From: an uncultured Legionellaceae bacterium
GTDB lineage: Bacteria > Pseudomonadota > Gammaproteobacteria > Legionellales > Legionellaceae
Assembly: GCA_964572685.1 (NCBI GenBank)
Contig: CAZNFJ010000001.1
Location: 7,838 to 71,837, forward strand
Length of the DNA stretch: 64,000 nt
Direction: 5' to 3'
Part shown: one piece after another, positions 7,355-41,836 of the stretch
Layout: each line of letters starts with the position of its first letter
Numbering within the stretch: the first letter of the stretch is position 1
Made by a program: the position numbers and the translations under genes
Notes under the pieces: generated by a model
What the model saw: the letters and a program-made list of their open reading frames with translations, nothing else
The model's database searches: none
What the model was told of the DNA's origin: nothing

Positions 7355-7366
7355 AAGAGTGCTGGA

Positions 7367-8293: not shown

Positions 8294-10583
8294 AATTGGC
8301 GATTTCTGAAGTTTCCAATAGATGATGATAAGATTGTGTTTCAATAATTTTTTCTCCATGTTTAAGAAGATATTGGACAATTTTAGCTTGTAGATCGATT
8401 GAAATGTAGGGGCAACTGATCAGCTGTCTAAATAAAAAGTTACATTGATGAACGCGCTCAATAGGAGAGGCCTTTATTATAATATCTCCAAGTTCAAATG
8501 TTAAATTGATATTGAGTGTTTGTAAAATAAAGGATATGAACATGCTTCTCAATACATGCAGGCCAGATGGAGGTAAAAAGTCAATCAAATTATTTTCTTT
8601 GAGTAGTGTGATGATGAGTATAATTTTATTGATTTGGTATGTGGTTTGATAGGGATTGAGTATCAGTAGAGCCATGTTCATTTTGATATGGTTTTCGAGT
8701 GGTAATACTTGATGAATTAATTGCGGATTTTGCTCATTGATGCGTATCAAATGGTCGAGTAATTTGATTTGCATATCATGATGAGTGTGCTGGTACATCG
8801 CAAAAATAATTTGAATTTTAAAATGAGGTAAAATATCTAGATCTGCCAATGTATTCAAATACACCAGATGGTTTTCCAAAGAATTTTGAAGTTGGAAAGA
8901 TGGATTGGTAAATAGCTGCTTTAAAAAAATTTTCATTTTTTGTTGGTGGGGCAGTTGCTTTTGGTTTCTATTATTTAAGTTGAAGAGTTTAAATAATAAA
9001 TTATAATCCTCAGTGCGAAGTTTATGTCGAAATAAATGAACCTTTTCAAGAAAGTTCAAGTTGTTGAGAATTTCATATAAATAATGACTTTGGATTCCCC
9101 GGTTCTTGATTAATAATCTGAGTGATGTGATTTTTAGTCGAAATGTATCGAGTTTATCATCTTTTTTAAAGTAAGTTATCTTTTTTTCGAGATTATCTAA
9201 CCACCAGTTCAGATATTTATCATGAACCTTGAATGAGTAAATATTTAATATAGCGGATGTCAATCTATTCAAATCAAGCCAACATAATATTTTCTTGAAT
9301 TGGCGCAGATTTAGTTTTAAAAACAAATGCTCATGTAGGGAAGAGTGTGGATTATTTTCATACAGCATTTGTAGAACAAGCAAATCAGAATCAAAATTAA
9401 TATCGCAAGACATTTCATATTGAGCATGTTTTAAATATTTTTTTATAAGGGGTTGGGGGTGATGTTGTAATTGAGAGAATAATTTTGATCTTTGATGATA
9501 ATCCTTATTCAGAGACAAAGGGTCGTATTGAAAATAGGAAAGTAAGATATTTAATGAAATAAATCCATGTAAAGCGGCCATTTCCATTCTATGCTCTGGA
9601 GTAAAAACGCCTTCTATCTCCATAGGATTGTAATTATTTTGATAATTTAAAGTGACTATATATTCTTCGTGTATATTAGAAATGATGGTTTCAGTTATTT
9701 GCAAACGTTCGATACAATCATAATGTGTTTGAAGACGTGCAGATGGAATAACGAGGTCATAAAGTGGATGGTTTTTGAGTGAGAGCAAAAATGCTAAATT
9801 GAGTACGGGTTTTTGAAGAGCGTCATGAATGAGTTGTAGCTTTTGCTCATTGGAAAGTAGAGATTCATTACTTAAAAATGCTTGAAAATGAACTTTGGAT
9901 GCAGAATAAAGATGATTATCTAAGCCTAGACTAAAAAAGAACTGTTTATATTCAAAGGGAATATCTGAATTGACAAAGCCCAATAACAATTGGTGTCGAT
10001 AAGTATGAATATATAGATTTTTGGTCAATAGAGATAGGAAAACAGTTTTTTCTAATAAATTTTTAAAATCAATTTCATTAAATGCGCGCCAAGTCAACCG
10101 AAATTCATTCTGACTGTATAAAGAAGCAAGCGTAAATAATATATCGGGTTTTTCATGAAGTTTAAGATTGGCTTCTAAAATTTGTATAATCCAGTGAATT
10201 TTAAGATCTAACTTTTTAAAACAATGGTCAAAATGAAGATAATTTTCGATAAAATATTTTTTTTCTTCTTCTCGATAAGGCGATCTTAAGAACTCAATCA
10301 CTCTGTGATAATTTCTAAATATGGGTTGATTGATAGAATATTGCTTTGCAAGAGACAATTGATGAAAAGGCAATGCGGCGTTTAAAGGCGACTTTAAGTA
10401 TTTTTGAAGATGTGCTGGGTGTGTCACTAAAATATGATGAATCAACTCTCTAAAATAGAATAACTCACGGGTATTGTTTTTTGCATTTTTATAAGCGACT
10501 AGCAATTTTTCAATATCTTGATAACTCAATAAATGCAAAGTCATAATTTGTAAATTTTTACATAATTCAAGTATGTTTATCAT
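8268..10583 (-). CDS. 771-aa orphan protein, all-helical by composition, no recognisable domain (candidate Dot/Icm substrate)
   Basis: Uninterrupted 2.3-kb ORF, Leu/Asn/His/Gln/Lys-rich, with no signal peptide or TM segment. Noticeably AT-richer than its neighbours: hand counts of two 60-nt lines gave about 30-32% GC, against about 45% in one thrS line. Confidence 0.7.
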   Translation of the reverse strand: MINILELCKNLQIMTLHLLSYQDIEKLLVAYKNAKNNTRELFYFRELIHHILVTHPAHLQKYLKSPLNAALPFHQLSLAKQYSINQPIFRNYHRVIEFLRSPYREEEKKYFIENYLHFDHCFKKLDLKIHWIIQILEANLKLHEKPDILFTLASLYSQNEFRLTWRAFNEIDFKNLLEKTVFLSLLTKNLYIHTYRHQLLLGFVNSDIPFEYKQFFFSLGLDNHLYSASKVHFQAFLSNESLLSNEQKLQLIHDALQKPVLNLAFLLSLKNHPLYDLVIPSARLQTHYDCIERLQITETIISNIHEEYIVTLNYQNNYNPMEIEGVFTPEHRMEMAALHGFISLNILLSYFQYDPLSLNKDYHQRSKLFSQLQHHPQPLIKKYLKHAQYEMSCDINFDSDLLVLQMLYENNPHSSLHEHLFLKLNLRQFKKILCWLDLNRLTSAILNIYSFKVHDKYLNWWLDNLEKKITYFKKDDKLDTFRLKITSLRLLIKNRGIQSHYLYEILNNLNFLEKVHLFRHKLRTEDYNLLFKLFNLNNRNQKQLPHQQKMKIFLKQLFTNPSFQLQNSLENHLVYLNTLADLDILPHFKIQIIFAMYQHTHHDMQIKLLDHLIRINEQNPQLIHQVLPLENHIKMNMALLILNPYQTTYQINKIILIITLLKENNLIDFLPPSGLHVLRSMFISFILQTLNINLTFELGDIIIKASPIERVHQCNFLFRQLISCPYISIDLQAKIVQYLLKHGEKIIETQSYHHLLETSEIANSNLNHRTI

Positions 10584-10701: not shown

Positions 10702-10776
10702 AGGCACGTAGCTCAGTGGTAGAGCACCACCTTGACATGGTGGTGGTCGGTGGTTCGATCCCACTCGTGCCTACCA
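10702..10776 (+). tRNA. tRNA-Val (anticodon GAC)
   Basis: Hand-folded cloverleaf. The 7-bp acceptor stem AGGCACG/CGTGCCT is fully paired. D arm GCTC-AGTGGTA-GAGC, anticodon arm CCACC-TTGACAT-GGTGG, T arm GGTGG-TTCGATC-CCACT, with an encoded CCA. Confidence 0.95.
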
Positions 10777-19512: not shown

Positions 19513-20160
19513 ATGAAACAGTTGAAATTTTTGGTAGGTCTTGGTTTTGTTGCAGCAATAACAGGGTGTGCTGCCACACAGACTGTGATTGAGCATGGAA
19601 AAATGTCTGTTCATACCCAGCAAAGCCAAAGTATTTTTCTAGAGCCTGTGGCTGATAGTCAAAAAACAATTTTTGTGTCGGTGAAAAATAATACCGAAGA
19701 AGAAATTAATATCAGCGGTCAACTCAAAGATCGTTTAAAAGAAGAAGGCTATCAAGTATTAAGTGATGCGCAAAATGCTCATTATGTTTTACAAACGAAT
19801 GTTTTACAAATTGGCAAAATAAGTGCATCTGCGTCAAGTTTAGCCTTGGGTGGTGGTTTTGGTTCTGCGTTAGCAGGAGCGACCGCAGGTGCTGCACTGG
19901 GTAGTTTTGCGCATTCAACCAGCGCTATTGTCGCAGGTGGCTTATCAGGTGGAGTTGTTGGACTTGCAGCCGATGCCTTGGTCAAAGATGTATCTTATTC
20001 GATGATAACCGATGTACAAATCACCGAGCACAAAGCCCATGGTGATAAGCGATATCGAACGCGTATTATTTCTAGTGCTAACCAAGTGAATTTAAAATTT
20101 AGCAGTGCCAAGCCGCTTTTGGAAAAAGGACTTATTAAAGCGATTTCTGGCATTTTTTAA
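19513..20160 (+). CDS. traT: TraT-like complement-resistance / surface-exclusion lipoprotein
   Basis: Lipobox (AAITGC). Collinear with F-plasmid TraT as I recall it (SIFLEPV, FVSVKNNT, Gly/Ala-rich middle, ADALVKDVSYSMITDVQI, RTRIISSANQVNLKF..AKPLLE). Confidence 0.85.
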   Translation: MKQLKFLVGLGFVAAITGCAATQTVIEHGKMSVHTQQSQSIFLEPVADSQKTIFVSVKNNTEEEINISGQLKDRLKEEGYQVLSDAQNAHYVLQTNVLQIGKISASASSLALGGGFGSALAGATAGAALGSFAHSTSAIVAGGLSGGVVGLAADALVKDVSYSMITDVQITEHKAHGDKRYRTRIISSANQVNLKFSSAKPLLEKGLIKAISGIF

Positions 20161-30809: not shown

Positions 30810-31019
30810 ATGGATACGCATCCAGTCACTGCTTGTCAACAAAAAAAAATAGAAGTTTATTTAAAAGATTTACCTTTGTGTTGCCCAACACCTCAAATGC
30901 AATTATGGAATGGGCATCCTAGAGTGTTTTTACCCATCGAAGAATCAGGCCACGAGACTTGCCCCTATTGTGGAACAGAATTTATTCTTGTGGACCATGA
31001 AGCACATCAAAAAGATTAA
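30810..31019 (+). CDS. Small zinc-finger (zf-CHCC-like) protein
   Basis: 69 aa with CCPTP....GHPRVFL...CPYCGTEF. This resembles the zf-CHCC domain (NDUFS6 C-terminal type) as I recall it. Confidence 0.55.
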   Translation: MDTHPVTACQQKKIEVYLKDLPLCCPTPQMQLWNGHPRVFLPIEESGHETCPYCGTEFILVDHEAHQKD

Positions 31020-32452
31020 TCCGTTTTTTCATCCGAGTCTGGAACATTTAATGTTGGTGCGGTTGCAGACTGGAGTAACATGACGCTATTGGTCAGCAAT
31101 ATTTTTTCTTGTTGCTTGCGCATCAAATACAATTGATAATTGATTTCAGCAAGCAATATGGCCGTTTCTTTTTGTACTCGAGCAGGTGAGGATTCATTAA
31201 TCATTTGTTGCCAAGGAACTGTATCCTGCTCGCCTGCAGAATTTAGATTATTGGGATTGGCCTTGGGGTTATATAATCGATAAGTTGCCATCTTAAATTC
31301 ATTTAAAGCCTGACTTGATGCCTGAGAAGAATCATCCTCTTCAGGATTGAGTTTTTTTCTGGCGCCCAAGATTTCATAAATATTTTGTATGCCAACAGAT
31401 ACCCGGGCTGCATAAACTCTCAAACCCAAGACATATTTACTCAAGTCGCGAAATGATTTTAGTTGGGTGGCAATATCTGGGGCATTTGAAATATTTTTTG
31501 TAATTTCTTCTAAATCCTCTTTACTCATGGGATCAGGTGGTAAAACACTACCGGTGACATATTTAATGTAGTTTTCTGCAGATTGCTCGGCATTATCAGC
31601 TTTTAATCCATTGCTTAATTCAGATGTTTGTGATGAGCTGTTATTAGATGTGGTGTTATCATACAGTAACGGAGTAGTGAGTAATGAACTATCGAGTTGG
31701 TTCATTAAATATACATTATTATTGATAACGTTTTCACCTTCTTGAGATTGTGGAAAAAAAAGCGAGTTGATATTGCTTGAAGCCAAAGTGTTTAACTTTG
31801 TATCAATCGAACACGCACCTGATGCCGCTTGTCCTTGTGATTTAACTAAATCATTGATATTTGGAAAAATACCCCATGAAGTAGCAAAAACCTTGGATTG
31901 AGTATAGGAGAATTTACAATTGGTATCCCAGTCTTGAGACTGACAATTTCCACGTTGTATATAGCAATAACTATCTGGGGTGATGCTGAGAATATTTTGT
32001 AAGGTTTGGGCAACAGGGCTTGGAAGAGATGGCGAACTATCTAATCGATTACCGGATTGATTGGGATTCTTATTGGCAAACACACGATTGGCTAAGCCGT
32101 TGATACCATCATAGACTGAATTCGCAATAAACGGATATTGATTAATAAAGTTATAATTAATAGATAATGTTGCAAATAAATATTGAACAACTGTAAATTC
32201 ATCTTTAATCGTTTGTGATGGGTTAATCAAATCCGAAGAAACTTTTGTGGTATCTGTGTGCTCGCCCCCAATCATAAAGCCCAAGGCAGCTCCTAAATTA
32301 TAAATATCGCTTTCAATTTGTTGTAAGATACTCATTTCTTCATTGGAATTATTTGAGCCTTCGCTGTAGGAGGGGGTTTCTTGAGCGAAAACCAAGGAGA
32401 GGGTAGTGGATAGTAAGCTAATAAAAGTGAGTTTTTTAATGATGGTTTTCAT
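31016..32452 (-). CDS. icmX: Dot/Icm T4BSS protein IcmX
   Basis: 478-aa secreted (signal peptide) protein immediately downstream of, and overlapping, icmW. Position and size match icmX of Legionella. The call rests mainly on synteny. Confidence 0.8.
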   Translation of the reverse strand: MKTIIKKLTFISLLSTTLSLVFAQETPSYSEGSNNSNEEMSILQQIESDIYNLGAALGFMIGGEHTDTTKVSSDLINPSQTIKDEFTVVQYLFATLSINYNFINQYPFIANSVYDGINGLANRVFANKNPNQSGNRLDSSPSLPSPVAQTLQNILSITPDSYCYIQRGNCQSQDWDTNCKFSYTQSKVFATSWGIFPNINDLVKSQGQAASGACSIDTKLNTLASSNINSLFFPQSQEGENVINNNVYLMNQLDSSLLTTPLLYDNTTSNNSSSQTSELSNGLKADNAEQSAENYIKYVTGSVLPPDPMSKEDLEEITKNISNAPDIATQLKSFRDLSKYVLGLRVYAARVSVGIQNIYEILGARKKLNPEEDDSSQASSQALNEFKMATYRLYNPKANPNNLNSAGEQDTVPWQQMINESSPARVQKETAILLAEINYQLYLMRKQQEKILLTNSVMLLQSATAPTLNVPDSDEKTD

Positions 32453-32904
32453 ACTTCAACCTCTAGTGCTTTAAGAATCAGACGTAAGCGTTGTGGTGAA
32501 AAGACTTTATGCATGAGCCTAAGTCTTTCAAAAGCCAAATTTCTTCGGATGAATGTTGATGCCATTGCATGACCAGAACTCGCAGCTGATTCAGCATAAC
32601 CAATGACTTTAGATGCACTACCCGGGTGTTTTTCATCAATGGCTTGTAACAACCGAAGTCCTCTACTGGTTTTGATGCTGGCAATAATTTGTATAAAAAT
32701 TTCTTCGTGTTTAAGCTGATTGATGTCAATATAATGTATTTCTTCTAATCGTTCGCCAAGATTTTTAAGGGCGATTTCTAATTCTGGATCACCATCTAAG
32801 GTACTGTTCTCTACACTTTCTAGAAAACATATGATGCGATAAATTGAAGGATCAGGAAATTGAAACCAATATTCACTGGAAGCTTGATGGCTCAGATCGG
32901 GCAT
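32449..32904 (-). CDS. icmW: Dot/Icm T4BSS chaperone/adaptor IcmW
   Basis: 151 aa. MPDLSH.AS..YWF...DP.IYR...F.ESVEN.TLDG.PELE and GRGLRLLQAID..HPGSAS blocks match my recollection of L. pneumophila IcmW. Divergent from icmV. Confidence 0.9.
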   Translation of the reverse strand: MPDLSHQASSEYWFQFPDPSIYRIICFLESVENSTLDGDPELEIALKNLGERLEEIHYIDINQLKHEEIFIQIIASIKTSRGLRLLQAIDEKHPGSASKVIGYAESAASSGHAMASTFIRRNLAFERLRLMHKVFSPQRLRLILKALEVEV

Positions 32905-33000: not shown

Positions 33001-33438
33001 ATGTTTATGTGGGTGAAAAAAGTAATTCGTGTGAGGGAGTGGTCGGATTATGATAGAAGTAAAGGTTTTTTGGAGTATGTAAAAAGTTTATTTACTAATT
33101 TATTTAGTTTAAGAAATTGGGATGAACATCCACCGAAAGAGTTTTCTAAAGTGGTTGAACAATACCATTTGCAAAAAGATGATTTGAATAAACGTGCTTT
33201 AATTTTTAAGCGTTTGAGCTTGATATTTTTGATGTTGTTTTTAGCAATTTGTGGATATGCAGGCTATATGTTCTATCTAGGGAGTCCATTCATTGGTTTT
33301 GTTGTGATTTGTATGAGTTTAATTGCGCTTTGTTTGGCTTTTCGTTATCATTTTTATCTCACATTGCTTCAACATAAACGCTTGAATCTTACATTGAGGG
33401 ATTGGGTTGAGCTTGTTTTTCAAAGGAAGTTGTCTTGA
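33001..33438 (+). CDS. icmV: Dot/Icm T4BSS inner-membrane protein IcmV
   Basis: 145 aa with two TM helices and an AFRYHF motif. Directly upstream of, and overlapping (TTGA), dotA, as in Legionella. Confidence 0.85.
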   Translation: MFMWVKKVIRVREWSDYDRSKGFLEYVKSLFTNLFSLRNWDEHPPKEFSKVVEQYHLQKDDLNKRALIFKRLSLIFLMLFLAICGYAGYMFYLGSPFIGFVVICMSLIALCLAFRYHFYLTLLQHKRLNLTLRDWVELVFQRKLS

Positions 33439-36314
33439 TTTTAATTGTATGTTTTTTTTTGTTGTGGAGTTTTCAAGCTGATGCTCAACAAGTACCACTT
33501 AGCACTGTTTTATCTTTTTCTCCTCCTCCAAGTGATCGCTCCATTCAATTTTTAGGTAATATTTTTGGTATTGTGGATGGGGTTTTAAGTGGGACAGGTA
33601 GCCAAATATTTGGCAATATGATGAGCGTTTTTAATGCCGCGGTGTTGGGTTTGGGTAGCATTGTGATTATGTATACCTTAATGATTGGTACAATGAATAC
33701 GGCTCATGAAGGAGAATTTTTAGGTAAAAAGTGGTCTTCTATTTGGATACCTGTACGTTGTAGCACGGGAATGTTACTCATTATGCCCAAAGCATCAGGT
33801 TACTGCTTGATGCAAATCATGATGATGTGGGTAGTGGTTCAAGGCGTGGGCGCTGCTGATAGAATTTGGTCATCTGCTTTGCAATATTTAAATCGTGGTG
33901 GAAAAATTGTACAGGCTCAGATGGGGTCTAAACAAATTTTAAATGCTTTTGTTGGAAAGCAAGATGCAAATTTTATTGGTGCATCTGCGATGTTAACGGG
34001 ACAAGTGTGTATGTATGCCACCCAAAAAGTTTTGGAGAAGGCTCAAACACACTATCAAATAATGGCTAATGATAATCAATCAGGTCCGTGTTTTAACCCT
34101 GTGGATGAAAATTGGCGGGCTTTTTGTCAATATCCGGTACCTTCTTTTTTAGAAACAGTTAATCCTGTTGATTACCAAAAATCTAAACAAACTTTACGTC
34201 GCGATACTCAGTATATGTTACCGATGCCTAATTTTGATTTTGAAGCTGTTCCTGGTGTTTATACACAATTGAATGGTTTATGTGGCGAACTTCATTGGAA
34301 TGATACTCGTAATTTGGACTTTAGTAGAGAGCATTTAAAAAATTTACTTTTTACCGAGGAACAAATTGATTCTTTTGGTTTGAGTCGTGCGATTGCAATG
34401 TCGCAAATGTATAGTCAATTAGCGATGGTTGCTATAGCCATGGTTGATAACAATCCTGAACTAAACTCGCATACACCGTTAGATAATCAGGTTTCATCGA
34501 TAGCTAACTTTCAGTATGGTGTTCCAAAAAATGAATTTGGCGAAACTTGTCAATATTTTCAAGATGATGAATCTTGTGCTTTATGGAATGCGGCAAAGGA
34601 CCAACTTCAAGCACCAGTATTACTTGCTGGTAATGAGTTTATCAATGCGATTGGTATTTATGAAGGACTCATGATGCCTATTTTGAATTTGATGAATGAA
34701 ATTAAAGATGAGGCGCATTTTAAAAAAATGCGTAATTTTATTGGTCAAACTCAGCAATCAGGTTGGATGTTTGCAGGGGCTTATTTTTTTAATTTAGTGA
34801 ATCTTACTGGACCTGTTAACAAAGTCAGTTTGATGAAAGATTTACATTCTGGAATGGACTCTAGCCACTTTTATCAAATACCTTCTTGTAAGAATACTTC
34901 ACAGGGCTTGTGTTGGTTTTTAAAACCGATGGGGTACATGTATCATTATGACTTGGTGGTTCTTGCCATGTTGCAAGGGTGGGGAAATAATCCGCAACAA
35001 GCCAATGATTGTGCCGAAACTTTAAGTTTCACTTCTCCGGGCGCTTTTCAATCCTCTAGTGGCTATGTTGAACCTCTTGGTCATTTTTCCTCAGGGGCAT
35101 GCGCCTCTACTGTTTTAGGGTTTATTGGGAATAGTTATTTTTTTCATTTGCCCGAACAGGCAGGTATGAAACCCATGACCTTGCCTGATTTTCCGATGAT
35201 GTTTGCAAAAATATTTCCTGATGGCGCTGCGCAAAAGTCTCAGGAACAATGCACCAATAAAATCCAGATTGCTGGTTGGAAATGGTGTATGAGTAGTGGT
35301 GGTCTTTGGGGCGTATTTAGTGATCTCATGGTCATGATTGCTAATTTTATCCAAAAAATGCTAGGCATTGCTATGAATATCTTAATTGTAATTCCTTTGA
35401 AGGTTTGTATTTGGCCACAAATGCAATATGCCATGCAGATTTTAACGCACCCATCTAGTAATCCGATTGTTGATTTAGCAAACATGGGCGCAAGTTTTAT
35501 TCAGTCGACATTGTATTCTTATCTTGGAATGTTGGCTATTAGTGGACTGGGTGCTTTTCCAATGATGGGAAGTGTCATTCTAATTTTGTTGGCATTTTTG
35601 ACGCCATTGTATGCTGCCTGGTTGTCTTATTTCGTTTCTATAGGTTTTACCACATGTTATTATATACCACTTCTGCCATATTTAATTTTTACCTTTGGCG
35701 TCATTGCCTGGTTATTTTCTGTGATTGAAGCAATGGTTGCCGCTCCAATTATGGCTTTAGGTATTACAACACCAGAAGGCGAAGGTATTTTAGGTAAAGG
35801 CGAACATGGTTTGATGCTTTTGGTGAATGTCTTTTTACGTCCATCTATGATGGTCATTGGTTTTATTGCCGGCGTGGCGCTTTCATATATCAGTATCTGG
35901 GTTTTAAATGCAGGATTTGATATTGCTGCTGGTTTTTTAAAGGTTAATGCCAGTGAGATGTCACAGGATATTTACGGTATTCATTGGTCTGAATTTCCTT
36001 TTGCGCAATTACTTGGATGTATGTTTTACGTGGTGATTTACATTAGTATTTATCTCACCATTATTCAAAAAACCTTCACACTTATTTTTCTGTTACCTGA
36101 TAAAGTATTGCGATGGATTGGTGGGCATCCTGAAAGTCTGGCCAGCGAAACCCAGCATTGGTTTCAAGAAGGTGCACAAAAACTCGATCAGTTCGGCAAA
36201 GTAACCGATAAAGGTATTGAAACCGGTTTAAATGATTTAAATAAAAAATTTGGAGAAGCGTTATTGGATCATCCAAAGAATTCAATTCAATCTGCGCCGC
36301 CTGTTAGCCCTTAG
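33435..36314 (+). CDS. dotA: Dot/Icm T4BSS polytopic membrane protein DotA (copy 1)
   Basis: 959 aa: signal/TM N-terminus, large central hydrophilic Cys-containing domain, polytopic C-terminus. Has the icmV-dotA operon position. TTG start coupled to the icmV stop, with RBS AAGGAAG. Confidence 0.85.
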   Translation: MILIVCFFLLWSFQADAQQVPLSTVLSFSPPPSDRSIQFLGNIFGIVDGVLSGTGSQIFGNMMSVFNAAVLGLGSIVIMYTLMIGTMNTAHEGEFLGKKWSSIWIPVRCSTGMLLIMPKASGYCLMQIMMMWVVVQGVGAADRIWSSALQYLNRGGKIVQAQMGSKQILNAFVGKQDANFIGASAMLTGQVCMYATQKVLEKAQTHYQIMANDNQSGPCFNPVDENWRAFCQYPVPSFLETVNPVDYQKSKQTLRRDTQYMLPMPNFDFEAVPGVYTQLNGLCGELHWNDTRNLDFSREHLKNLLFTEEQIDSFGLSRAIAMSQMYSQLAMVAIAMVDNNPELNSHTPLDNQVSSIANFQYGVPKNEFGETCQYFQDDESCALWNAAKDQLQAPVLLAGNEFINAIGIYEGLMMPILNLMNEIKDEAHFKKMRNFIGQTQQSGWMFAGAYFFNLVNLTGPVNKVSLMKDLHSGMDSSHFYQIPSCKNTSQGLCWFLKPMGYMYHYDLVVLAMLQGWGNNPQQANDCAETLSFTSPGAFQSSSGYVEPLGHFSSGACASTVLGFIGNSYFFHLPEQAGMKPMTLPDFPMMFAKIFPDGAAQKSQEQCTNKIQIAGWKWCMSSGGLWGVFSDLMVMIANFIQKMLGIAMNILIVIPLKVCIWPQMQYAMQILTHPSSNPIVDLANMGASFIQSTLYSYLGMLAISGLGAFPMMGSVILILLAFLTPLYAAWLSYFVSIGFTTCYYIPLLPYLIFTFGVIAWLFSVIEAMVAAPIMALGITTPEGEGILGKGEHGLMLLVNVFLRPSMMVIGFIAGVALSYISIWVLNAGFDIAAGFLKVNASEMSQDIYGIHWSEFPFAQLLGCMFYVVIYISIYLTIIQKTFTLIFLLPDKVLRWIGGHPESLASETQHWFQEGAQKLDQFGKVTDKGIETGLNDLNKKFGEALLDHPKNSIQSAPPVSP

Positions 36315-36404
36315 TGGGTTTTATTGCCAATTATATCAAGACTAGGTATACTTTTTTAATTGGCTGTATTTTATGGATTTTTTTTGTCTGGCTAGGAGAG
36401 CATC

Positions 36405-39305
36405 ATGCCATTACGAATAGGCTATTTGCTTGTTTTATGCTTTTTTTGTTGTTTGGCTTATTCTCAAGTGCCACTAAGTACCGTATTATCTCTAGCCCCC
36501 CCTCCCACAGATGGTTCCCTGGTTTATTTGGCAAATATATTTGGTACTGTTGATGGCGTTCTTTCTTCCTCTGGTAGTCAGGTGTTTGGCCATTTAATGG
36601 GCGTTTTTAATTTAACCGTACTTGCTTTAGGTAGTATTGTTATCATGTACACGTTGATTGTGGGTACATTGAATACAGCCCATGAGGGAGAATTTTTAGG
36701 AAAACATTGGTCCTCTATTTGGCTTCCTGTGCGAGCGACAATCGGGATGACATTATTGGTTCCTAAAACCAGTGGTTTTTGCTTGATGCAAATTATTGTG
36801 ATGTGGGTGGTCGTGCAAGGTGTTGGTGCGGCAGACAAAGTTTGGAATGAAGCTTTGGATTATATGAATATGGGGGGGCAGCTGATTGCAAAGCAATCTA
36901 GTTCTGAGAGTATTTATAGTATTAACTCGGTTTCCAATCCAGCATACAATGGAGCAACGGCGCTATTAACGGGTCAAGTTTGTGCATACATGATGCAAAG
37001 GCAATTTGAAAAACTAAGAGAAGAATATTTATCTCTCGCCAATCCTGGGGATAATTCTGCCCCTTCGGGGCCTTGTGCTCCAAATGCCACAAAAACATCC
37101 TATATGAAAGATTTCTGCGATAATCCAGTACCTGACTTTTTAGGTGGTCTGAATGCCGTTCAGTTTGCGAATAATAATAGCAGAGCAACAACAACTCGCT
37201 CAACCATGCCTATTCCCTATTTTGATGCCAACGCATTTCCGTCATTTTATGTGACCTTGAGCGACAAATCTATTTGTGGTTCGGTGGCATGGGAAAACAT
37301 GAAATCAACATCGGAACAGGTGCAAGATTTTTTAAAGCTAACCGATTCTCAAGCTGAAAGTATAATAAAATCAAGAGCTATTGCCATACAACAAATGATT
37401 GAATTTTTACAACCCGTTGCACGTGCGATGGTCGATAACAATCCTGAGATTAATAAAAATTTAAGTTCAGCTGATACAGCGACACCTGTAGCATTTTCTC
37501 AATATGGTATTGCGCTCAATAATGACGGTGCTCCATGTTCCCAACAGGGCGGATGTTACACTTGGGGGACAGATACAAATAAATATTCTGTCCTATTTGC
37601 AGGAAATGAGTTTTATAATGCTTTGAATGCTTATGCAGGCGTTATGGAACCTATGCTGAATTTGAAAAATGAGAAATCGTTGTCAGATGCAAAAAAGTTT
37701 ATACAAGGTGCTAAGCAACAAGGCTGGATCTATGCCGGGGGGTATTTTTTTCAATTGATTCGTTTGTCAGGAAATCCAGTTCATTCTGCAACAATTGATA
37801 CGGAATCCGGTTTGGGGGATTCTTCTTTACCAGCGTTAAAGGCGTGTGAAGAAACAGACGGTGATAGTTCCATACTATGTAATACTTTTGGTAATCCAAC
37901 AGCTAACATTATCATTGATAATATTAGTAATATTATTTATGGGTCTGCAGTGAGTTCAAAAGCCGTATCATCTCCTTGCTCGGGAGGAATGAAGTATACT
38001 TATTCAGATAAAGTAACGGCTTATGGTTATGTTTCTGTTGATGCAAGTAATAGCGGTAATGGTAATATACATCATTTTCAAAATATAAATTGTTCTTCAA
38101 CAACATTGGGATTTATCGGGAATACCTTTTTTTTGAGTAACCCAGGACAACCCGACATGAAGATTCCCCCGTTAATCTTTCCAGAGTTTCATCCATATAC
38201 CCCAATAAAAACACCTAAATTTAGGAAGCCTAAATGTAGAACGAAACCATTTTGTCCAGGAATTATTACAGAAGGAATACAATCTGTGATTAGTTATGTT
38301 CTTTCTTTTGTGGTACAAGCTATTTGGTATGCAATCGTCACTTTTTTATCTTCAGCTATTGAAGGAATGTTGGGTAATGTGTGGCAAGCTTTTTCTGTTG
38401 CATTGGATCAGTTACGTGATATGAGTCTAAATCCTATAGTGAATTTAGCCAATGTTGGCGCAGTATTTATTCAAGCGGGAGGTGAAATCATTGTTTTAAT
38501 TATAATTGCAGGTGCGATTGCTATGATGAATGTATATGCTGCTGCAGCCATGGGCTTTATTTTGGCAGTTGCATTGCCCTTTGTTTTGGTATGGGTGATT
38601 TTCTTTTTTACAATTGGGTTCGTTGCTGCGTATTATATTCCTCTATATCCGTATATGATATTTTTATTTGGAAGCATAGCTTGGTTGATGTCCGTCATTG
38701 AAGCCATGGTGGCTGCTCCCATTGTTGCTTTAGGTATCATGTCGCCTGAAGGAGAAGGAATTCTTGGAAAAAGTGAAACAGGCATGATGATTTTAGTGAA
38801 TGTCTTTTTGCGACCTTCAATGATGATCATTGGTTTTATCATGGCGATTGTTTTAACCTATGTTGCGGTATGGATTATAAATTTTCAATACGATATCGTT
38901 GCTAAGTATCTATTGGATTATTCTTCAAGTGGCTCAGTAGCAGCACAAGCGGGTGTGAACTTTAAAACCAATTTTTTTGCTCAGGTTTTTGGATTTGGTT
39001 CTTATATTAGTATTTATGTGAGTATATATCTGACTGTGGCACAAAAGTCATTTGGCTTGATTTTCCAATTGCCCGATAAAGTTTTGCGGTGGATTGGTGC
39101 TCAACAGGAGTCTTTGGGCCAAGAGGTCCAACATTGGGCAGATGAATCCAAACAAAAAACCGAACAAATAGCCGGTCAAGTGGAACAAAAAATGGGTACA
39201 GCTACTTCTGCTCTTAAAGAAAACATGGGTGGTGAAAAAGGTCAAGAAGGCAAACAGTCGGGTAGTGTTGGAGGCGGCGGAGGCGGCGGAGGCGGCGGAG
39301 GTTAA
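36405..39305 (+). CDS. dotA: Second full-length DotA paralogue (copy 2), with C-terminal poly-Gly tail
   Basis: 966 aa, collinear with copy 1. 98/139 residues are identical in the ungapped N-terminal block by hand count, and the C-terminal TM blocks and LPDKVLRWIG are conserved. It has its own RBS (AGGAG) and ATG, and ends in 11 Gly. Confidence 0.85.
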   Translation: MPLRIGYLLVLCFFCCLAYSQVPLSTVLSLAPPPTDGSLVYLANIFGTVDGVLSSSGSQVFGHLMGVFNLTVLALGSIVIMYTLIVGTLNTAHEGEFLGKHWSSIWLPVRATIGMTLLVPKTSGFCLMQIIVMWVVVQGVGAADKVWNEALDYMNMGGQLIAKQSSSESIYSINSVSNPAYNGATALLTGQVCAYMMQRQFEKLREEYLSLANPGDNSAPSGPCAPNATKTSYMKDFCDNPVPDFLGGLNAVQFANNNSRATTTRSTMPIPYFDANAFPSFYVTLSDKSICGSVAWENMKSTSEQVQDFLKLTDSQAESIIKSRAIAIQQMIEFLQPVARAMVDNNPEINKNLSSADTATPVAFSQYGIALNNDGAPCSQQGGCYTWGTDTNKYSVLFAGNEFYNALNAYAGVMEPMLNLKNEKSLSDAKKFIQGAKQQGWIYAGGYFFQLIRLSGNPVHSATIDTESGLGDSSLPALKACEETDGDSSILCNTFGNPTANIIIDNISNIIYGSAVSSKAVSSPCSGGMKYTYSDKVTAYGYVSVDASNSGNGNIHHFQNINCSSTTLGFIGNTFFLSNPGQPDMKIPPLIFPEFHPYTPIKTPKFRKPKCRTKPFCPGIITEGIQSVISYVLSFVVQAIWYAIVTFLSSAIEGMLGNVWQAFSVALDQLRDMSLNPIVNLANVGAVFIQAGGEIIVLIIIAGAIAMMNVYAAAAMGFILAVALPFVLVWVIFFFTIGFVAAYYIPLYPYMIFLFGSIAWLMSVIEAMVAAPIVALGIMSPEGEGILGKSETGMMILVNVFLRPSMMIIGFIMAIVLTYVAVWIINFQYDIVAKYLLDYSSSGSVAAQAGVNFKTNFFAQVFGFGSYISIYVSIYLTVAQKSFGLIFQLPDKVLRWIGAQQESLGQEVQHWADESKQKTEQIAGQVEQKMGTATSALKENMGGEKGQEGKQSGSVGGGGGGGGGGG
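39270..39301 (+). repeat. 9-bp tandem repeat (GGAGGCGGC)x3 + GGAGG encoding the poly-Gly tail of DotA copy 2
   Basis: Read directly: gga ggc ggc gga ggc ggc gga ggc ggc gga gg. An almost pure-GC 32-nt island in an AT-rich genome, abutting the convergent dotB stop. Confidence 0.9.
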
Positions 39306-40426
39306 TTGTTTTCCTGATGCGTGCCTAAGGTAATCAATTTATAGGTTTTTTCGCTGATGATCCCTGCTTCATATTTATCTTTAGCATCTTTTGTCATCAA
39401 TTGACCCTGTTCTCGAACCAGTCTTCGAGTTGCTGAGGTGATATCATGAGGATCACTTTCTAAAAGAATATCTCGAATCTTTTCATCGAATACCAGGTAC
39501 TCCCGAAGCGCAACTCGTTTACCTTCAATCGTTGGTACTAATTTTTGCCATATGCATAAACGAATAGTCTCCAGAATATCAATCGTTCTGCCTAATCGTT
39601 CATCTTTGGAAAAAGAGGTCACCAGACGACGCATGGTTTCTGCTACACCCGAGGTATGTAATGTGGTGTAAACAGGATGTCCAGTCAACGCTGCCTCGAG
39701 AGCAGCACTGATGGTTTCAGAATCTCGACATTCACCTACCATAATTAAACGAGGTTTACGTCTTAGGGCATTTCGAATACCTTCGGCAAAGTTTGGTATG
39801 TGTCTTGGAATTTCAGATTGACTGACAATCGCTGAAGTGGTATTAATTTCATCAAATACAAATTCAATCGGCGATTCATAGGTTAAAACCTTACGATTGG
39901 AATCTTCCTGTTCGATGAGTTCCCGAATAATTGATGCCAATAAAGTGGATTTACCTGAGCCTGTCGCTCCCGTTACAAAAACAATCCCTTCTTGTGGGGC
40001 TAATGCTTTAATGACATCAGGGGGTAGATCCATGGTATCCAAGCGCGGTGGCGTTGTAGGAATGGTTCTCAATGTAATTTGAATACCATCATGACCTTCG
40101 ACAAGACATGCTGTCGCATTGACTCGAAAACGAAAACGTTCTCCTCGTGTCGGTCTGAATTCATAATGAGTATCAATATCTTTTCCAGATAGAAGTTGTG
40201 TAGCTGCATTGGGCCCATAAATGGCATTGATCATATCACTGACTTCTGAATTGGAGAGGTGGCGTGAGGTGATTTGAATCAAACGACCATAAATCTCTGC
40301 CATGATCGGCGCGCCGGTTTGAACGGTGACATCTGAGGCTTGCAAGCCTGTTGTAAATTCGAGCATCTTATCCATGTTGAGACTAGTAAAACGAGGAGGT
40401 TCATTAGGGAATTGCATGAAGGTCAT
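39302..40426 (-). CDS. dotB: Dot/Icm T4BSS ATPase DotB (PilT/VirB11-like)
   Basis: Walker A GATGSGKST, Asp box, Walker B/His box (LIMVGECRD, TGHPVYTTLHT). Upstream genes are dotC and dotD. Confidence 0.95.
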   Translation of the reverse strand: MTFMQFPNEPPRFTSLNMDKMLEFTTGLQASDVTVQTGAPIMAEIYGRLIQITSRHLSNSEVSDMINAIYGPNAATQLLSGKDIDTHYEFRPTRGERFRFRVNATACLVEGHDGIQITLRTIPTTPPRLDTMDLPPDVIKALAPQEGIVFVTGATGSGKSTLLASIIRELIEQEDSNRKVLTYESPIEFVFDEINTTSAIVSQSEIPRHIPNFAEGIRNALRRKPRLIMVGECRDSETISAALEAALTGHPVYTTLHTSGVAETMRRLVTSFSKDERLGRTIDILETIRLCIWQKLVPTIEGKRVALREYLVFDEKIRDILLESDPHDITSATRRLVREQGQLMTKDAKDKYEAGIISEKTYKLITLGTHQENN

Positions 40427-41361
40427 CGTTCATCCACCGTACCGATTACTGGCTGCCAGGTATTACTGGAAATCGTGATTTTGGCTTGATTTATTTTAGC
40501 TTCCAGCTTGGTAAATTTAGAAATCGCTTCTTCATCTTTATCTAGTGCTGCGTGCCATTCGTTGGGATTGATATTTAAAGCTGGAAGAGCTGTAATTCTT
40601 AAGACACGATCATCAATGTGCATCTCTTCAGCATCACCAGTTACACCCAAATCGGTATGAGAAATAAACGGGGGAGAAACCATATTCATCGCCAATAATT
40701 TTCGATATAAAATCATGCCATTGAAATCTTGTTTAATGCGAGCAATACTTTCTTCTAAAATGGTATTGGCTTGTTCGACACCCTGTTGCCAGCCTCGAGC
40801 AACATAAGTTTTCCAAACAGCTGCCTCTGCTTTATTGGTCGGTAATAGACTGGGATGGGGAGGCTCAGGTGATTCATAATCCATCCACAAATATTCGCGC
40901 CAGTTAGGAGCTGTTGTGATGAAATGAGCTTGCTTGTAAACACGATACATTCGATTGGATACTCGAATGGTTTGCAAATCATCTAAATTAAAGGTATTGC
41001 GCCCCTCTAAAAGAACTGGTGGCATGACATTTTGTTCTAAGATTAAGGCATTAAAATCATAGATTTTATCAAGATAGCGCTGTTGAGTAACCAATTCATT
41101 ATCAATTTCCTTGGCGCGTACTGCCAATCCTGTTTGAGCACCCACACTAAGAGCGGTATCCTTAATAGCCGTTTCACGAATTTTATTCATGGACTCTTGC
41201 TTAGATTTGGCTAATTTTTTCTTATTGCTCATCGCCATTAATGACTCGAGCGTAGGGCTTGCATCGTTGTCATCAACGACACGAACTCTTTGTGTGGCGC
41301 AACCCGAAATGAGCAATGCCAGAAAAAAAATCTTGAGATGTTTACCCGTAAAATTTGACAT
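40423..41361 (-). CDS. dotC: Dot/Icm T4BSS outer-membrane lipoprotein DotC
   Basis: Lipobox LISGC, 312 aa, position between dotD and dotB. Confidence 0.85.
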   Translation of the reverse strand: MSNFTGKHLKIFFLALLISGCATQRVRVVDDNDASPTLESLMAMSNKKKLAKSKQESMNKIRETAIKDTALSVGAQTGLAVRAKEIDNELVTQQRYLDKIYDFNALILEQNVMPPVLLEGRNTFNLDDLQTIRVSNRMYRVYKQAHFITTAPNWREYLWMDYESPEPPHPSLLPTNKAEAAVWKTYVARGWQQGVEQANTILEESIARIKQDFNGMILYRKLLAMNMVSPPFISHTDLGVTGDAEEMHIDDRVLRITALPALNINPNEWHAALDKDEEAISKFTKLEAKINQAKITISSNTWQPVIGTVDER

Positions 41362-41836
41362 ATCTTAATTCTATAACCTGATTTCGAGGATATACATGAA
41401 TGCTTGCGCGATTCCCAGCTTGATAATCAATATTTCTTAATATTTCTGCTAAACTTTGGTCTTTGACATTCATATTAATTAATAGGGGGACGGTAGGTGG
41501 ATGTCCGAGAATTCGTAAGCGATAGTGAGCTGCGTGGGCGACACGTTTGATTAATTCTTCAATGGGACCTACCCAATCAATCGATGCACGTGTTTGTAGA
41601 TTATAAGAGCTTGGAATATTAATACGGTTATCAACATCTTTAGGTAACAAAACTTTTTCAATTTTTGCCATTTCCAGCATGGAGTTGCTAATCGAATGGG
41701 CTGCTTCTGCCAATTTTATACTGGCATCGTCACTTGGTGCATTGATCGGTGGTCTTTTTTGCATTGGCGTGGTACAAGCATAAAGTAGCCAAGTAAGAGA
41801 CACCACCAAAATGGACTTTAGCGCATTGTTTTTCAT
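41342..41836 (-). CDS. dotD: Dot/Icm T4BSS outer-membrane lipoprotein DotD
   Basis: Lipobox LLYAC, 164 aa, first gene of the dotDCB operon. Confidence 0.85.
   Translation of the reverse strand: MKNNALKSILVVSLTWLLYACTTPMQKRPPINAPSDDASIKLAEAAHSISNSMLEMAKIEKVLLPKDVDNRINIPSSYNLQTRASIDWVGPIEELIKRVAHAAHYRLRILGHPPTVPLLINMNVKDQSLAEILRNIDYQAGNRASIHVYPRNQVIELRYVKFYG

What the first reader, a model, noticed from the sequence alone, without database searches (positions are those of the whole stretch)
33435..39305. Two full-length, diverged DotA paralogues in tandem inside the Dot/Icm core locus
Seen in the sequence: ORFs 33435-36314 (959 aa) and 36405-39305 (966 aa) are same-strand neighbours 90 nt apart and are collinear end to end. 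A hand count of the ungapped N-terminal block (QQVPLSTVLSF...YLNRGG vs SQVPLSTVLSL...YMNMGG) gives 98/139 identical residues. The polytopic C-terminal block (YYIPL.PY.IF.FG.IAWL.SVIEAMVAAPI.ALGI..PEGEGILGK...LVNVFLRPSMM.IGFI) and the LPDKVLRWIG motif are also conserved. Conserved islands, including Cys positions (LTGQVC, SGPC, VDNNPE.N, AGNEF, GW..AG.YFF, LGFIGN), persist through the more diverged central domain. In conserved blocks the nucleotide differences are mostly synonymous, and both ORFs are intact with their own start context. This points to an old duplication with both copies under constraint, not an assembly artefact or a decaying copy. Established knowledge: DotA is a polytopic inner-membrane core component of the Legionella/Coxiella T4BSS with a large periplasmic domain. 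It is encoded after icmV and is itself released in a Dot/Icm-dependent way in L. pneumophila. The well-studied systems carry one dotA. Inference: the two copies may form hetero-oligomers, or alternative condition- or host-specific versions of the DotA module. The divergence is concentrated in the periplasmic domain that would face IcmX and the core complex.
Basis: partly seen in the sequence, partly recalled or inferred. Interest (0 to 1): 0.8.

Follow-up and report, generated by a model that had tools for sequence, protein, structure and literature searches.

The report
Two old tandem DotA gatekeeper genes
An uncultured relative of Legionella carries two full-length, long-diverged copies of dotA, the gene for the central gate of its Dot/Icm protein-injection machine; both copies have been kept intact across a whole clade, and I found no description of this in the literature I could search.

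Summary
Both pass NCBIfam's DotA equivalog cutoff and match the solved L. pneumophila DotA (PDB 9ngy) end to end. Both keep all ten extended-domain cysteines. They lie in icmX-icmW / icmV-dotA1-dotA2 / dotB-dotC-dotD.

The tandem is not an artefact. It recurs with the same synteny in at least 11 independent assemblies of uncultured Legionellales. First copies and second copies form separate clades, so the duplication is old. Paralogue synonymous sites are saturated. Both copies are under purifying selection (dN/dS 0.06-0.08 and 0.14-0.17), and dotA2 evolves faster in this lineage.

Independent younger duplications exist in cultured Legionella massiliensis (an icmV-dotA unit, copies 74% identical) and in other lineages. 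One distant locus holds four DotA/TraY genes in a row.

No paper in the searchable library describes this. The closest precedent is the VirB6 paralogue arrays of Rickettsiales.

Most likely both proteins are working gate subunits, one conserved and one variable. Whether they mix in one pentamer or build alternative gates is untested. This is a new variant of a known system, of moderate interest.

The parts
31016..32452 (-). icmX. It is the only copy in the window. IcmX is the periplasmic partner that sits as a pentamer on the DotA pentamer.
   Evidence: NCBIfam NF038225 IcmX E=5e-81, 273 bits, below the 500-bit equivalog cutoff. Position and synteny are conserved in all related loci. tblastn finds no second icmX in the window.
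32449..32904 (-). icmW
   Evidence: Pfam PF23130 E=9e-48; NCBIfam NF038222 157.7 bits, cutoff 100.
33001..33438 (+). icmV, first gene of the icmV-dotA1-dotA2 run.
   Evidence: NCBIfam NF038219 102.7 bits, cutoff 100. Its stop overlaps the dotA1 start (cTTGAtt).
33435..36314 (+). dotA1 (alpha copy, 959 aa). This is the slow-evolving copy in this lineage. It has a full-length Cys-bracketed hairpin (C606-x11-C618).
   Evidence: NF033886 T4SS_DotA 771 bits, cutoff 500. PDB 9ngy DotA E=2e-195. AF2 pLDDT 78.3, and Foldseek finds only 9ngy (E=5e-38). dN/dS 0.06-0.08. Ten conserved Cys plus one extra pair.
36315..36404 (+). 90-nt spacer. It carries a conserved dotA2 ribosome-binding context (TTGCTAGGAGAGC, 6 nt before the ATG) and a promoter-like TTGCCA-17-TATACT at 36324-36352. 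It has no terminator-like hairpin.
   Evidence: The start context is conserved in L157, L002, L010, L008 and L088 although the spacer length varies from 41 to 181 nt. Promoter-like matches are not enriched over shuffles in the region, so the promoter is only a possibility.
36405..39305 (+). dotA2 (beta copy, 966 aa). This is the faster-evolving copy in this lineage. Its Cys-bracketed hairpin is shortened (C611-x5-C617) and it ends in a poly-Gly tail.
   Evidence: NF033886 743 bits, cutoff 500. AF2 pLDDT 78.7, and Foldseek finds only 9ngy (E=6e-38, 944 columns). dN/dS 0.14-0.17. Ten conserved Cys plus one extra pair. Hairpin data.
39302..40426 (-). dotB ATPase, convergent with dotA2.
   Evidence: TIGR02524 DotB 673 bits, cutoff 463.
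40423..41361 (-). dotC
   Evidence: Pfam PF16932 T4SS_TraI (the DotC family) E=1e-83.
41342..41836 (-). dotD lipoprotein
   Evidence: NF033882 191.5 bits, cutoff 140; Pfam DotD.

Best explanation
[quoted passage not shown] They arose by one tandem duplication of dotA alone (icmV was not copied). The duplication happened in an ancestor of a clade of uncultured, non-Legionella Legionellales, and both copies were then inherited vertically in fixed order. Inferred: both are made from the icmV-dotA1-dotA2 run. dotA1 is translationally coupled to icmV. dotA2 has its own conserved ribosome-binding site and perhaps an internal promoter. Both enter the Dot/Icm machine as gate protomers, because the parts that build the membrane chamber and touch DotG (TM1/TM2, and the HH helices with the VIEAMVAAP/PEGEG/NVFLRPSMM motifs) are retained, as is the disulfide framework of the periplasmic domain. 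In this lineage DotA1 is the tightly constrained 'core' version. DotA2 is a variant whose IcmX/DotG-facing, probably host-exposed periplasmic domain and channel-neck helix are free to change. I think the pair most likely gives the cell two versions of the gate, either alternative homopentamers or loosely mixed pentamers, rather than a fixed-stoichiometry heteromer.
For: All ten L. pneumophila extended-domain cysteines are kept in both copies. Purifying selection acts on both: dN/dS 0.079 and 0.136 against a close strain, and 0.061 and 0.167 against a farther one, within the range of neighbouring dot/icm genes. No 100-codon window exceeds 1. The duplication is old: paralogue pS is about 0.70 overall and 0.53-0.82 in every 60-codon window. 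First copies of two deep lineages group in 88-94% of NJ bootstraps, and in 99% for the HH region, while DotA1+DotA2 group in 0%. Four derived residues are shared by all second copies. The pair is retained in tandem with identical synteny in the window, L001, L002, L003/4, L005/6, L007, L008, L010, L088, L154 and L157, and split across contig ends in UBA2469 and WB8_3_061. For the core-plus-variant reading: in the window's lineage 127 sites are conserved in alpha but variable in beta, against 13 the other way, with only 7 fixed differences. The neck/HH1 segment is near-invariant in alpha and variable in beta. The rate asymmetry is reversed in the sister lineage, which fits lineage-specific partition of roles better than a fixed heteromer. 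DotA, with DotG and IcmX, is known to be the fast-evolving, recombining, presumably host-exposed part in Legionella (PMC6761968). dotA2 shows a high-dS tract between two close strains, consistent with recombination. dotA has been duplicated independently at least three more times.
Against: There are no expression or protein data. All carriers of this duplication are uncultured, so nothing about assembly has been observed. Stable 1:1 retention of exactly two copies over a long time, with low dN/dS in both, would also fit an obligate heteromer. There is only one icmX to pair with two DotAs. The phylogeny uses NJ on corrected distances only, with no ML or site-heterogeneous model; beta monophyly is only 76% in the large taxon set and 5-19% in the reduced set. 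The N-terminal block gives a conflicting signal. The promoter-like site is not statistically supported.
Confidence: 0.5

Rival explanations
1. Obligate heteromeric gate: DotA1 and DotA2 co-assemble in every machine, either as a mixed pentamer (as in heteropentameric ion channels) or as two tiers, each having lost something the other supplies. This would be analogous to DotI/DotJ in the same system.
For: Both copies have been kept without exception in every lineage that has the pair, in fixed order and close spacing, probably co-transcribed. The oligomerisation and membrane parts are the best conserved between paralogues. Six sites exist where both paralogues of a lineage share a state that differs from the other lineage. 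In the N-terminal TM block the sister lineage's paralogues group together in 82% of bootstraps, as expected if the two proteins co-evolve at a shared interface or with a shared partner. DotI/DotJ is a precedent within Dot/Icm (PMC11338181).
Against: C5 symmetry with a single IcmX makes a fixed heteromer awkward (PMC12501162). Which copy is the constrained one differs between lineages. Only 7 fixed alpha/beta differences were found in the window's lineage. A related lineage (L155, clade X) works with a single dotA. The N-block signal could equally be ancient gene conversion.
Confidence: 0.22
2. DotA2 has left the gate role. For example, it may be specialised as the released or ejected form of DotA, or be a periplasmic or surface factor that no longer forms the channel.
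For: L. pneumophila DotA and IcmX are released in a Dot/Icm-dependent way (PMC12501162 discussion; PMC6761968). In this lineage DotA2's channel-neck helix is poorly conserved and its Cys-bracketed hairpin is shortened. Its tail is Gly-rich and disordered.
Against: DotA2 keeps the full TM1/TM2 and HH1-5 architecture and the most conserved family motifs. In the sister lineage the second copy is the better conserved one. The short hairpin also occurs in single-copy clade X and some Legionella.
Confidence: 0.12
3. DotA2 is a redundant copy drifting towards loss, or the tandem is an assembly artefact.
For: dotA2 evolves 2-5 times faster than dotA1 at the protein level in this lineage. One unrelated case (L082) has 99% identical copies that could be an artefact.
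Against: dN/dS is 0.14-0.17, with intact reading frames in every relative across a divergence where MutL is only about 50% identical. All cysteines are kept. The same tandem appears in Logan, ENA, JGI and NCBI assemblies from different samples. At 41% identity the two copies cannot be collapsed or duplicated by an assembler.
Confidence: 0.03

Closest known systems
Legionella pneumophila DotA (PDB 9ngy/9nh0; DotA-IcmX protochannel, Yue et al. 2025, PMC12501162)
   Same: Same family by equivalog HMM. End-to-end alignment at 38-41% identity. Same order of signal peptide, TM1/TM2, large disulfide-rich periplasmic domain and HH1-5. Same ten cysteines. Same gene neighbourhood (icmV upstream, icmWX divergent, dotBCD convergent).
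   Different: L. pneumophila and about 70 other Legionella-type genomes sampled here show one dotA near icmV. This clade has two, as far from each other as each is from L. pneumophila DotA. There is an extra Cys pair in both copies, and a shortened hairpin in DotA2.
VirB6 paralogue arrays of the Rickettsiales rvh type IVA system (RvhB6a-e; PMC2653234; four expressed VirB6 paralogues in Anaplasma, PMC7648143)
   Same: Proliferation of the polytopic inner-membrane channel subunit of a T4SS in intracellular bacteria. The copies are conserved in the membrane core and divergent in the flanking or extra-membrane parts. According to PMC12501162, DotA is the structural counterpart of VirB6 (TM1/2 plus five hydrophobic helices, pentamer).
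   Different: A different T4SS type (IVA rather than IVB) and no detectable sequence relationship was tested here. Rickettsiales have 4-5 very divergent copies with huge extensions. Here there are exactly two full-length, collinear copies, although locus L148 has four.
DotI/DotJ of Dot/Icm, and the tandem dotI duplication of Coxiella burnetii (reviewed in PMC11338181; PMC4454188)
   Same: Paralogous inner-membrane components of the same machine encoded side by side. [quoted passage not shown]
   Different: DotJ has lost the periplasmic domain, whereas both DotA copies are full length. It is a different protein family and a different position in the machine.
Independent icmV-dotA duplication in Legionella massiliensis LegA (L029, NZ_CCVW01000001)
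   Same: Two full-length DotA equivalogs (1037 and 1055 bits) in tandem at the same locus, with divergence strongest in the central periplasmic part.
   Different: The duplicated unit includes icmV. The copies are 74% identical and sister to each other in the tree, so this is a separate, younger event. The organism is cultured.

Membership tests
DotA (type IVB secretion system protein DotA, NCBIfam NF033886 equivalog) | Whole-protein score above the curated equivalog cutoff (500 bits) | tested here: met
   DotA1 771.2 bits and DotA2 743.0 bits, each covering profile positions 1-790.
DotA | Architecture: signal peptide, TM1/TM2, large periplasmic extended domain, five long hydrophobic helices | tested here: met
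   phmmer against 9ngy DotA gives E=2e-195, residues 22-836 against 20-845. The AF2 models have near-identical helix maps. Foldseek finds 9ngy as the only significant hit for both. The hydropathy profiles are similar. The global TM-score is low (0.31-0.36) because the monomer models pack the long helices differently from the in-situ pentamer.
DotA | Five disulfide pairs (ten Cys) of the extended domain | tested here: met
   All ten L. pneumophila positions hold Cys in both copies. Actual disulfide bonding cannot be tested here.
DotA | Genomic context in Dot/Icm region I, downstream of icmV | tested here: met
   icmX, icmW, icmV, dotB, dotC and dotD were identified around the pair.
DotA | Forms a pentamer docked to an IcmX pentamer inside the DotG cage | not testable with these tools
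   Only monomer prediction is available. One icmX is present. The putative IcmX-facing loop and hairpin differ between the copies.
DotA | Required for effector translocation; released in a Dot/Icm-dependent way | not testable with these tools
   This needs genetics or biochemistry, and the organism is uncultured.
DotA/TraY subfamily (TIGR04346), conjugative TraY type | TraY-type rather than DotA-type member | tested here: not met
   Both proteins pass the subfamily model (307 and 323 bits). They also pass the more specific DotA equivalog, and they sit inside the Legionellales DotA clade.
Paralogous T4SS channel-subunit arrays (the VirB6 expansion type seen in Rickettsiales) | Two or more intact, diverged, co-oriented paralogues of the polytopic channel subunit kept under selection within one T4SS locus | tested here: met
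   This is a functional analogy only; no homology to VirB6 was tested here.

The most novel reading that the evidence does not exclude
The two DotAs are obligate partners that build a heteromeric gate with the single IcmX, either a mixed pentamer or two stacked rings. That would be a Dot/Icm machine whose central channel is intrinsically asymmetric. The repeated, independent dotA duplications (this clade, L. massiliensis, the four-gene array in L148) would then mark a general route by which T4BSS gates diversify, parallel to the VirB6 arrays of Rickettsiales.
Probability: 0.2. Interest if true: 0.7.

Novelty: new variant of a known kind. Interest (0 to 1): 0.45.

Why it matters
[quoted passage not shown] A whole clade that has kept two deeply diverged DotAs next to one IcmX for a long time asks a concrete structural question: can the gate be heteromeric, or can a cell build alternative gates? 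It also shows that the component known to evolve fastest and to recombine in Legionella also diversifies by duplication. The same thing has happened independently in a cultured species, L. massiliensis, so the question can be tested by genetics and cryo-ET without culturing the MAG organisms. The parallel with VirB6 expansion in Rickettsiales suggests a common evolutionary response of intracellular bacteria at the T4SS channel subunit.

Tried and rejected
1. Recent gene conversion as the cause of the conserved N-terminal block is rejected. Paralogue pS in that block is 0.66-0.81 in all alpha/beta genomes. Ancient conversion or co-evolution in the sister lineage remains possible.
2. Positive selection was not detected. 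No 100-codon window has pN/pS above 1. Site or branch models could not be run.
3. Independent duplications in each of the two deep lineages (scenario T3) is disfavoured. Diagnostic characters are ambiguous (7 for T1, 6 for T3), but NJ bootstraps give 0% for DotA1+DotA2 and 88-99% for the first-copy clade.
4. The shortened Cys-bracketed hairpin of DotA2 is not taken as evidence of lost IcmX docking. The same short form occurs in the single-copy clade X and in some Legionella. The paper's text does not give residue numbers for the IcmX-inserting hairpin, so the equivalence is unproven.
5. There is no second icmX or other duplicated dot/icm gene in the window.
6. Organism naming failed. The source is an unnamed NCBI MAG contig of 78,385 bp, and no paper mentions the related MAG names.
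7. Several literature searches for 'two dotA' and similar phrases were swamped by the chelator DOTA or by unrelated duplication papers. Gomez-Valero 2019 PNAS and Burstein 2016 could not be opened by the ids I tried.
8. The global TM-score against 9ngy is low, so the AF2 monomers are not useful for judging the assembled conformation.
Full report
**Observation.** The window holds two same-strand ORFs. The first is 33435-36314 (959 aa, TTG start). The second is 36405-39305 (966 aa, ATG start). They are 90 nt apart. BLASTP aligns them collinearly from end to end: 403/981 identical (41%), 57% positives. The quoted motifs are all present.

**Identity.** Both proteins exceed the curated cutoff of NCBIfam's DotA equivalog model NF033886 (771 and 743 bits; cutoff 500), and each covers the whole profile.
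- The neighbours are icmX and icmW (divergent), icmV (immediately upstream, its stop overlapping the dotA1 start), and dotB, dotC and dotD (convergent). This is Dot/Icm region I.
- DotA1 matches the solved L. pneumophila DotA (PDB 9ngy) at E=2e-195.
- AlphaFold2 models built from 85-86-sequence alignments are confident for both (pLDDT 78.3 and 78.7, pTM 0.73) and have nearly superimposable helix maps.
- Foldseek against the PDB finds 9ngy DotA as the only significant match for each (E about 5e-38, more than 920 aligned columns). The global TM-score is low because the isolated monomer packs its long helices differently from the in-situ pentamer.
- All ten cysteines of the L. pneumophila extended domain (five disulfides in the structure paper) are conserved in both copies. 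Both also share one additional, clade-specific Cys pair.

**Not an artefact, and not unique to this genome.** The same icmV-dotA-dotA-dotB arrangement appears in independent assemblies, embedded in the same mutL-miaA ... rsmD-ftsYEX-rpoH synteny.
- Logan runs: L001, L002, L003/L004, L157.
- ENA: L005/L006, L154.
- JGI: L007, L088.
- NCBI MAGs: UBA10507 (L008) and UBA4759 (L010).
- In MAGs UBA2469 and WB8_3_061 the two copies sit at the ends of two contigs, as expected when an assembler breaks between paralogues.
- The carriers are uncultured 'Legionellales bacterium' or 'Gammaproteobacteria bacterium' MAGs. The window's own source is an unnamed NCBI contig.

**Age and history.** Paralogue synonymous differences are saturated (pS 0.70 overall; 0.53-0.82 in every 60-codon window), so there has been no recent gene conversion.
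- In an NJ tree of 74 DotAs (902 columns, 100 bootstraps) the paired clade is monophyletic (100%).
- All first-position copies fall in one clade (alpha, 87%) and all second-position copies in another (beta, 76%).
- With a reduced taxon set and three distance corrections, first copies of the two deepest lineages group in 88-94% of replicates. DotA1+DotA2 never group.
- Taken by domain, the C-terminal hydrophobic-helix region gives 99% for the first-copy clade and the extended domain gives 61%. The N-terminal TM block instead groups the two paralogues of the sister lineage (82%).
- Clade-diagnostic characters are split: 7 for one old duplication, 6 for lineage-specific pairing, 1 for the third option. 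Four of the seven are derived states shared by all second copies.
- I conclude that one duplication predates the split of these lineages. The N-terminal block has a partly concerted or co-evolving history.
- One related lineage (L155, clade X) has a single dotA between icmV and dotB. It either lost the second copy or branched before the duplication.

**Selection.**
- Against a close strain (L157), dN/dS is 0.079 for dotA1 and 0.136 for dotA2.
- Against a more distant relative (L002), dN/dS is 0.061 and 0.167. The neighbouring dot/icm genes range from 0.03 to 0.23.
- No 100-codon window exceeds 1.
- In the window's lineage DotA2 changes faster than DotA1. For example, identity is 82% against 64%, and 72% against 54%, for the same genome pairs. 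In the sister lineage the second copy is the slower one.
- In the window's lineage 195 aligned sites are conserved and identical in both copies. A further 127 are conserved in alpha but variable in beta, 13 are the reverse, and only 7 are fixed differences. So DotA2 differs mainly by relaxed or diversifying change, not by a new fixed signature.
- The segment aligned to the L. pneumophila channel neck (L719-M729, HH1) is nearly invariant among alpha copies and variable among beta copies.
- Between the two closest strains, dotA2 has a tract of elevated dS starting after codon 100 (0.14-0.39, against 0.02-0.18 in dotA1). This suggests allelic recombination, as reported for dotA in Legionella (PMC6761968).

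**Where the copies differ.** Identity between the copies is 63% in the signal peptide-TM1-TM2 block, 32% in the periplasmic extended domain and 48% in the HH region. These figures are almost the same as each copy shows against L. pneumophila DotA.
- The loop aligned to L. pneumophila residues 205-220, described as contacting IcmX, differs in length and sequence between the copies.
- A hydrophobic hairpin bracketed by two conserved cysteines (L. pneumophila C612-x10-C623) is full length in DotA1 (x11; predicted as two strands) and shortened in DotA2 (x5; no strands).
- The shortening is confined to beta copies of the window's sub-lineage. It also occurs in single-copy clade X and in a few Legionella, so it does not show loss of function. 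I could not confirm from the text that this is the hairpin that inserts into IcmX.

**Expression signals.** dotA1's TTG overlaps the icmV stop and is preceded by GGAAG.
- The spacer before dotA2 has an AGGAGA ribosome-binding site. Its wider context (TTGCTAGGAGxGC ... ATGCCATT) is conserved in six relatives although the spacer varies from 41 to 181 nt.
- There is a promoter-like hexamer pair at 36324-36352 and no terminator-like hairpin between the genes. Promoter-like matches are no more frequent than in shuffled sequence, so the promoter is only a possibility.

[quoted passage not shown] It is capped by an IcmX pentamer and caged by DotG. The complex is closed at rest and rearranges on host contact, and both proteins can be released (PMC12501162).
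- Both window proteins keep everything that builds that chamber. My best reading (confidence about 0.5) is that both are working gate protomers, one constrained and one variable.
- On this reading the cell gets two versions of the gate's periplasmic, IcmX/DotG-facing and probably host-exposed surface.
- The reversal of which copy is constrained in the sister lineage, the small number of fixed differences, and the existence of a single-copy relative all argue against a fixed heteromer.
- Strict co-retention and the N-terminal co-variation keep the heteromer alive as a rival (about 0.2).
- A copy that has left the gate role (about 0.1) and a decaying copy or artefact (about 0.03) are less likely.

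**Wider pattern.** Among the 80 best genome loci (about 78 genomes, mostly Legionella species), six genomes show two dotA genes.
- Four of the six belong to the clade described above.
- The fifth is cultured Legionella massiliensis LegA. There the whole icmV-dotA unit is doubled, the copies are 74% identical and are sister to each other, and the divergence is mosaic: nucleotide identity is 92% at the 5' end, 80% at the 3' end, and undetectable by blastn in the middle.
- The sixth is an uncultured Legionella with 99% identical copies, which may be very recent or an artefact.
- A distant metagenomic locus (L148) carries four full-length DotA/TraY-family genes in a row after icmW-icmV, only 24-31% identical to one another.
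- dotA duplication is therefore recurrent.

**Literature.** Searches of the held library found no description of duplicated dotA.
- The 58-species Dot/Icm study (PMC6761968) contains no occurrence of 'duplicat', 'paralog' or 'two copies'.
- The 2024 review (PMC11338181) discusses only the DotI duplication in its text. Its Figure 6 marks duplicated components with a 'D', but the figure itself is not held, so I could not see whether DotA is marked.
- Other candidate papers did not mention it.
- Some key papers could not be opened, so absence from the literature is not proven.
- The nearest known analogue is the four- to five-fold expansion of VirB6 in the Rickettsiales rvh system. VirB6 is the structural counterpart of DotA (PMC2653234, PMC7648143).

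**Verdict.** This is a real, old, selectively maintained tandem pair of DotA gatekeeper genes that characterises an uncultured Legionellales clade. It is a new variant of a known system, of moderate interest (0.45). It is more testable than it looks, because L. massiliensis offers a cultured case.

Noticed in passing
L148:5132-16648 (JGI Ga0214917_10000888): After icmW and icmV come four tandem full-length DotA/TraY-family ORFs (760, 729, 803 and 1213 aa). Each passes TIGR04346 (156-244 bits, cutoff 100) but falls below the DotA equivalog cutoff. They are only 24-31% identical to each other, mainly in the C-terminal region. This resembles the VirB6 arrays of Rickettsiales.
   Followed up: partly
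L029:9516-16453 (Legionella massiliensis LegA, NZ_CCVW01000001): The whole icmV-dotA unit is duplicated in tandem in a cultured species. The DotA copies are 74% identical. Nucleotide identity is 92% over the first 1 kb and 80% over the last 1.1 kb, and the middle is undetectable by blastn. N-block pS is 0.33 against 0.61 elsewhere. No paper was found that mentions this.
   Followed up: partly
L082:9242-15901 (uncultured Legionella sp. binchicken_co266_183): The arrangement is dotA-icmV-dotA, with the two dotA copies 99% identical at both protein and DNA level. This is either a very recent duplication or an assembly artefact.
   Followed up: no
window 36405-39305 compared with L157:6001-8898: Between two otherwise very close strains, dotA2 has three-fold higher synonymous divergence than dotA1 and the flanking genes. 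The rise starts after about codon 100 (pS 0.05, then 0.14-0.39). This looks like an imported allele or recombination tract.
   Followed up: partly
window 35250-35288 (DotA1 C606-C618) and 38235-38255 (DotA2 C611-C617): A Cys-bracketed hydrophobic hairpin just before helix HH1 is C-x11-C in DotA1 but only C-x5-C in DotA2. It is C-x4-C in several DotA2 orthologues and in single-copy clade X. It may be the hairpin that inserts into IcmX in L. pneumophila, but this is unconfirmed.
   Followed up: partly
window DotA1 C526/C556 and DotA2 C525/C563: An extra conserved cysteine pair is absent from Legionella DotA. It is present in all beta copies and in the DotA1 clade but not in the long first copies of the sister lineage. 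It is a candidate sixth disulfide.
   Followed up: no
N-terminal 150 residues of DotA in L003, L005, L007 and UBA2469 (L011/L012): In the TM1-TM2 block the two paralogues of the sister lineage group with each other (82% bootstrap), although the rest of the protein groups by copy. Synonymous sites are saturated, so this reflects either ancient gene conversion or co-evolution with a shared partner.
   Followed up: partly
L007:6797-8001 (JGI 3300081920): In this relative the two dotA copies are 1.2 kb apart, and the gap holds a DDE_3 transposase fragment (7171-7404, minus strand).
   Followed up: no
L009:13368-15968 (MAG WB8_3_061, RGPR01000003): An 866-aa ORF on the opposite strand follows the first dotA. 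It matched none of the window's reference proteins, and the contig ends before the second dotA, which is on another contig (L013). It may be an inserted effector-like gene.
   Followed up: no
L138:2-688 (JGI Ga0207012_1022): At the contig start there is a partial DotA-like ORF on the minus strand. It is 63% identical to the C-terminus of the main dotA that lies 3.5 kb downstream. This may be another, inverted, partial duplication.
   Followed up: no
window 8268-10583 (-): A 771-aa ORF with no Pfam match lies in the lowest-GC stretch of the window (31% against about 38%). It sits next to a tRNA gene at 10702-10773. It is an orphan or a candidate horizontally acquired or effector gene.
   Followed up: no
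window 39270-39302: DotA2 ends in a run of eleven glycines. Beta-copy tails are generally Gly/Ser/Lys-rich and disordered, whereas alpha-copy tails are Pro-rich.
   Followed up: no
window 2542-6191 and 19513-20160: A DabB/DabA-type inorganic-carbon transporter pair (Proton_antipo_M plus DabA, 699 bits) and a TraT-family lipoprotein gene lie in an otherwise housekeeping chromosomal region.
   Followed up: no
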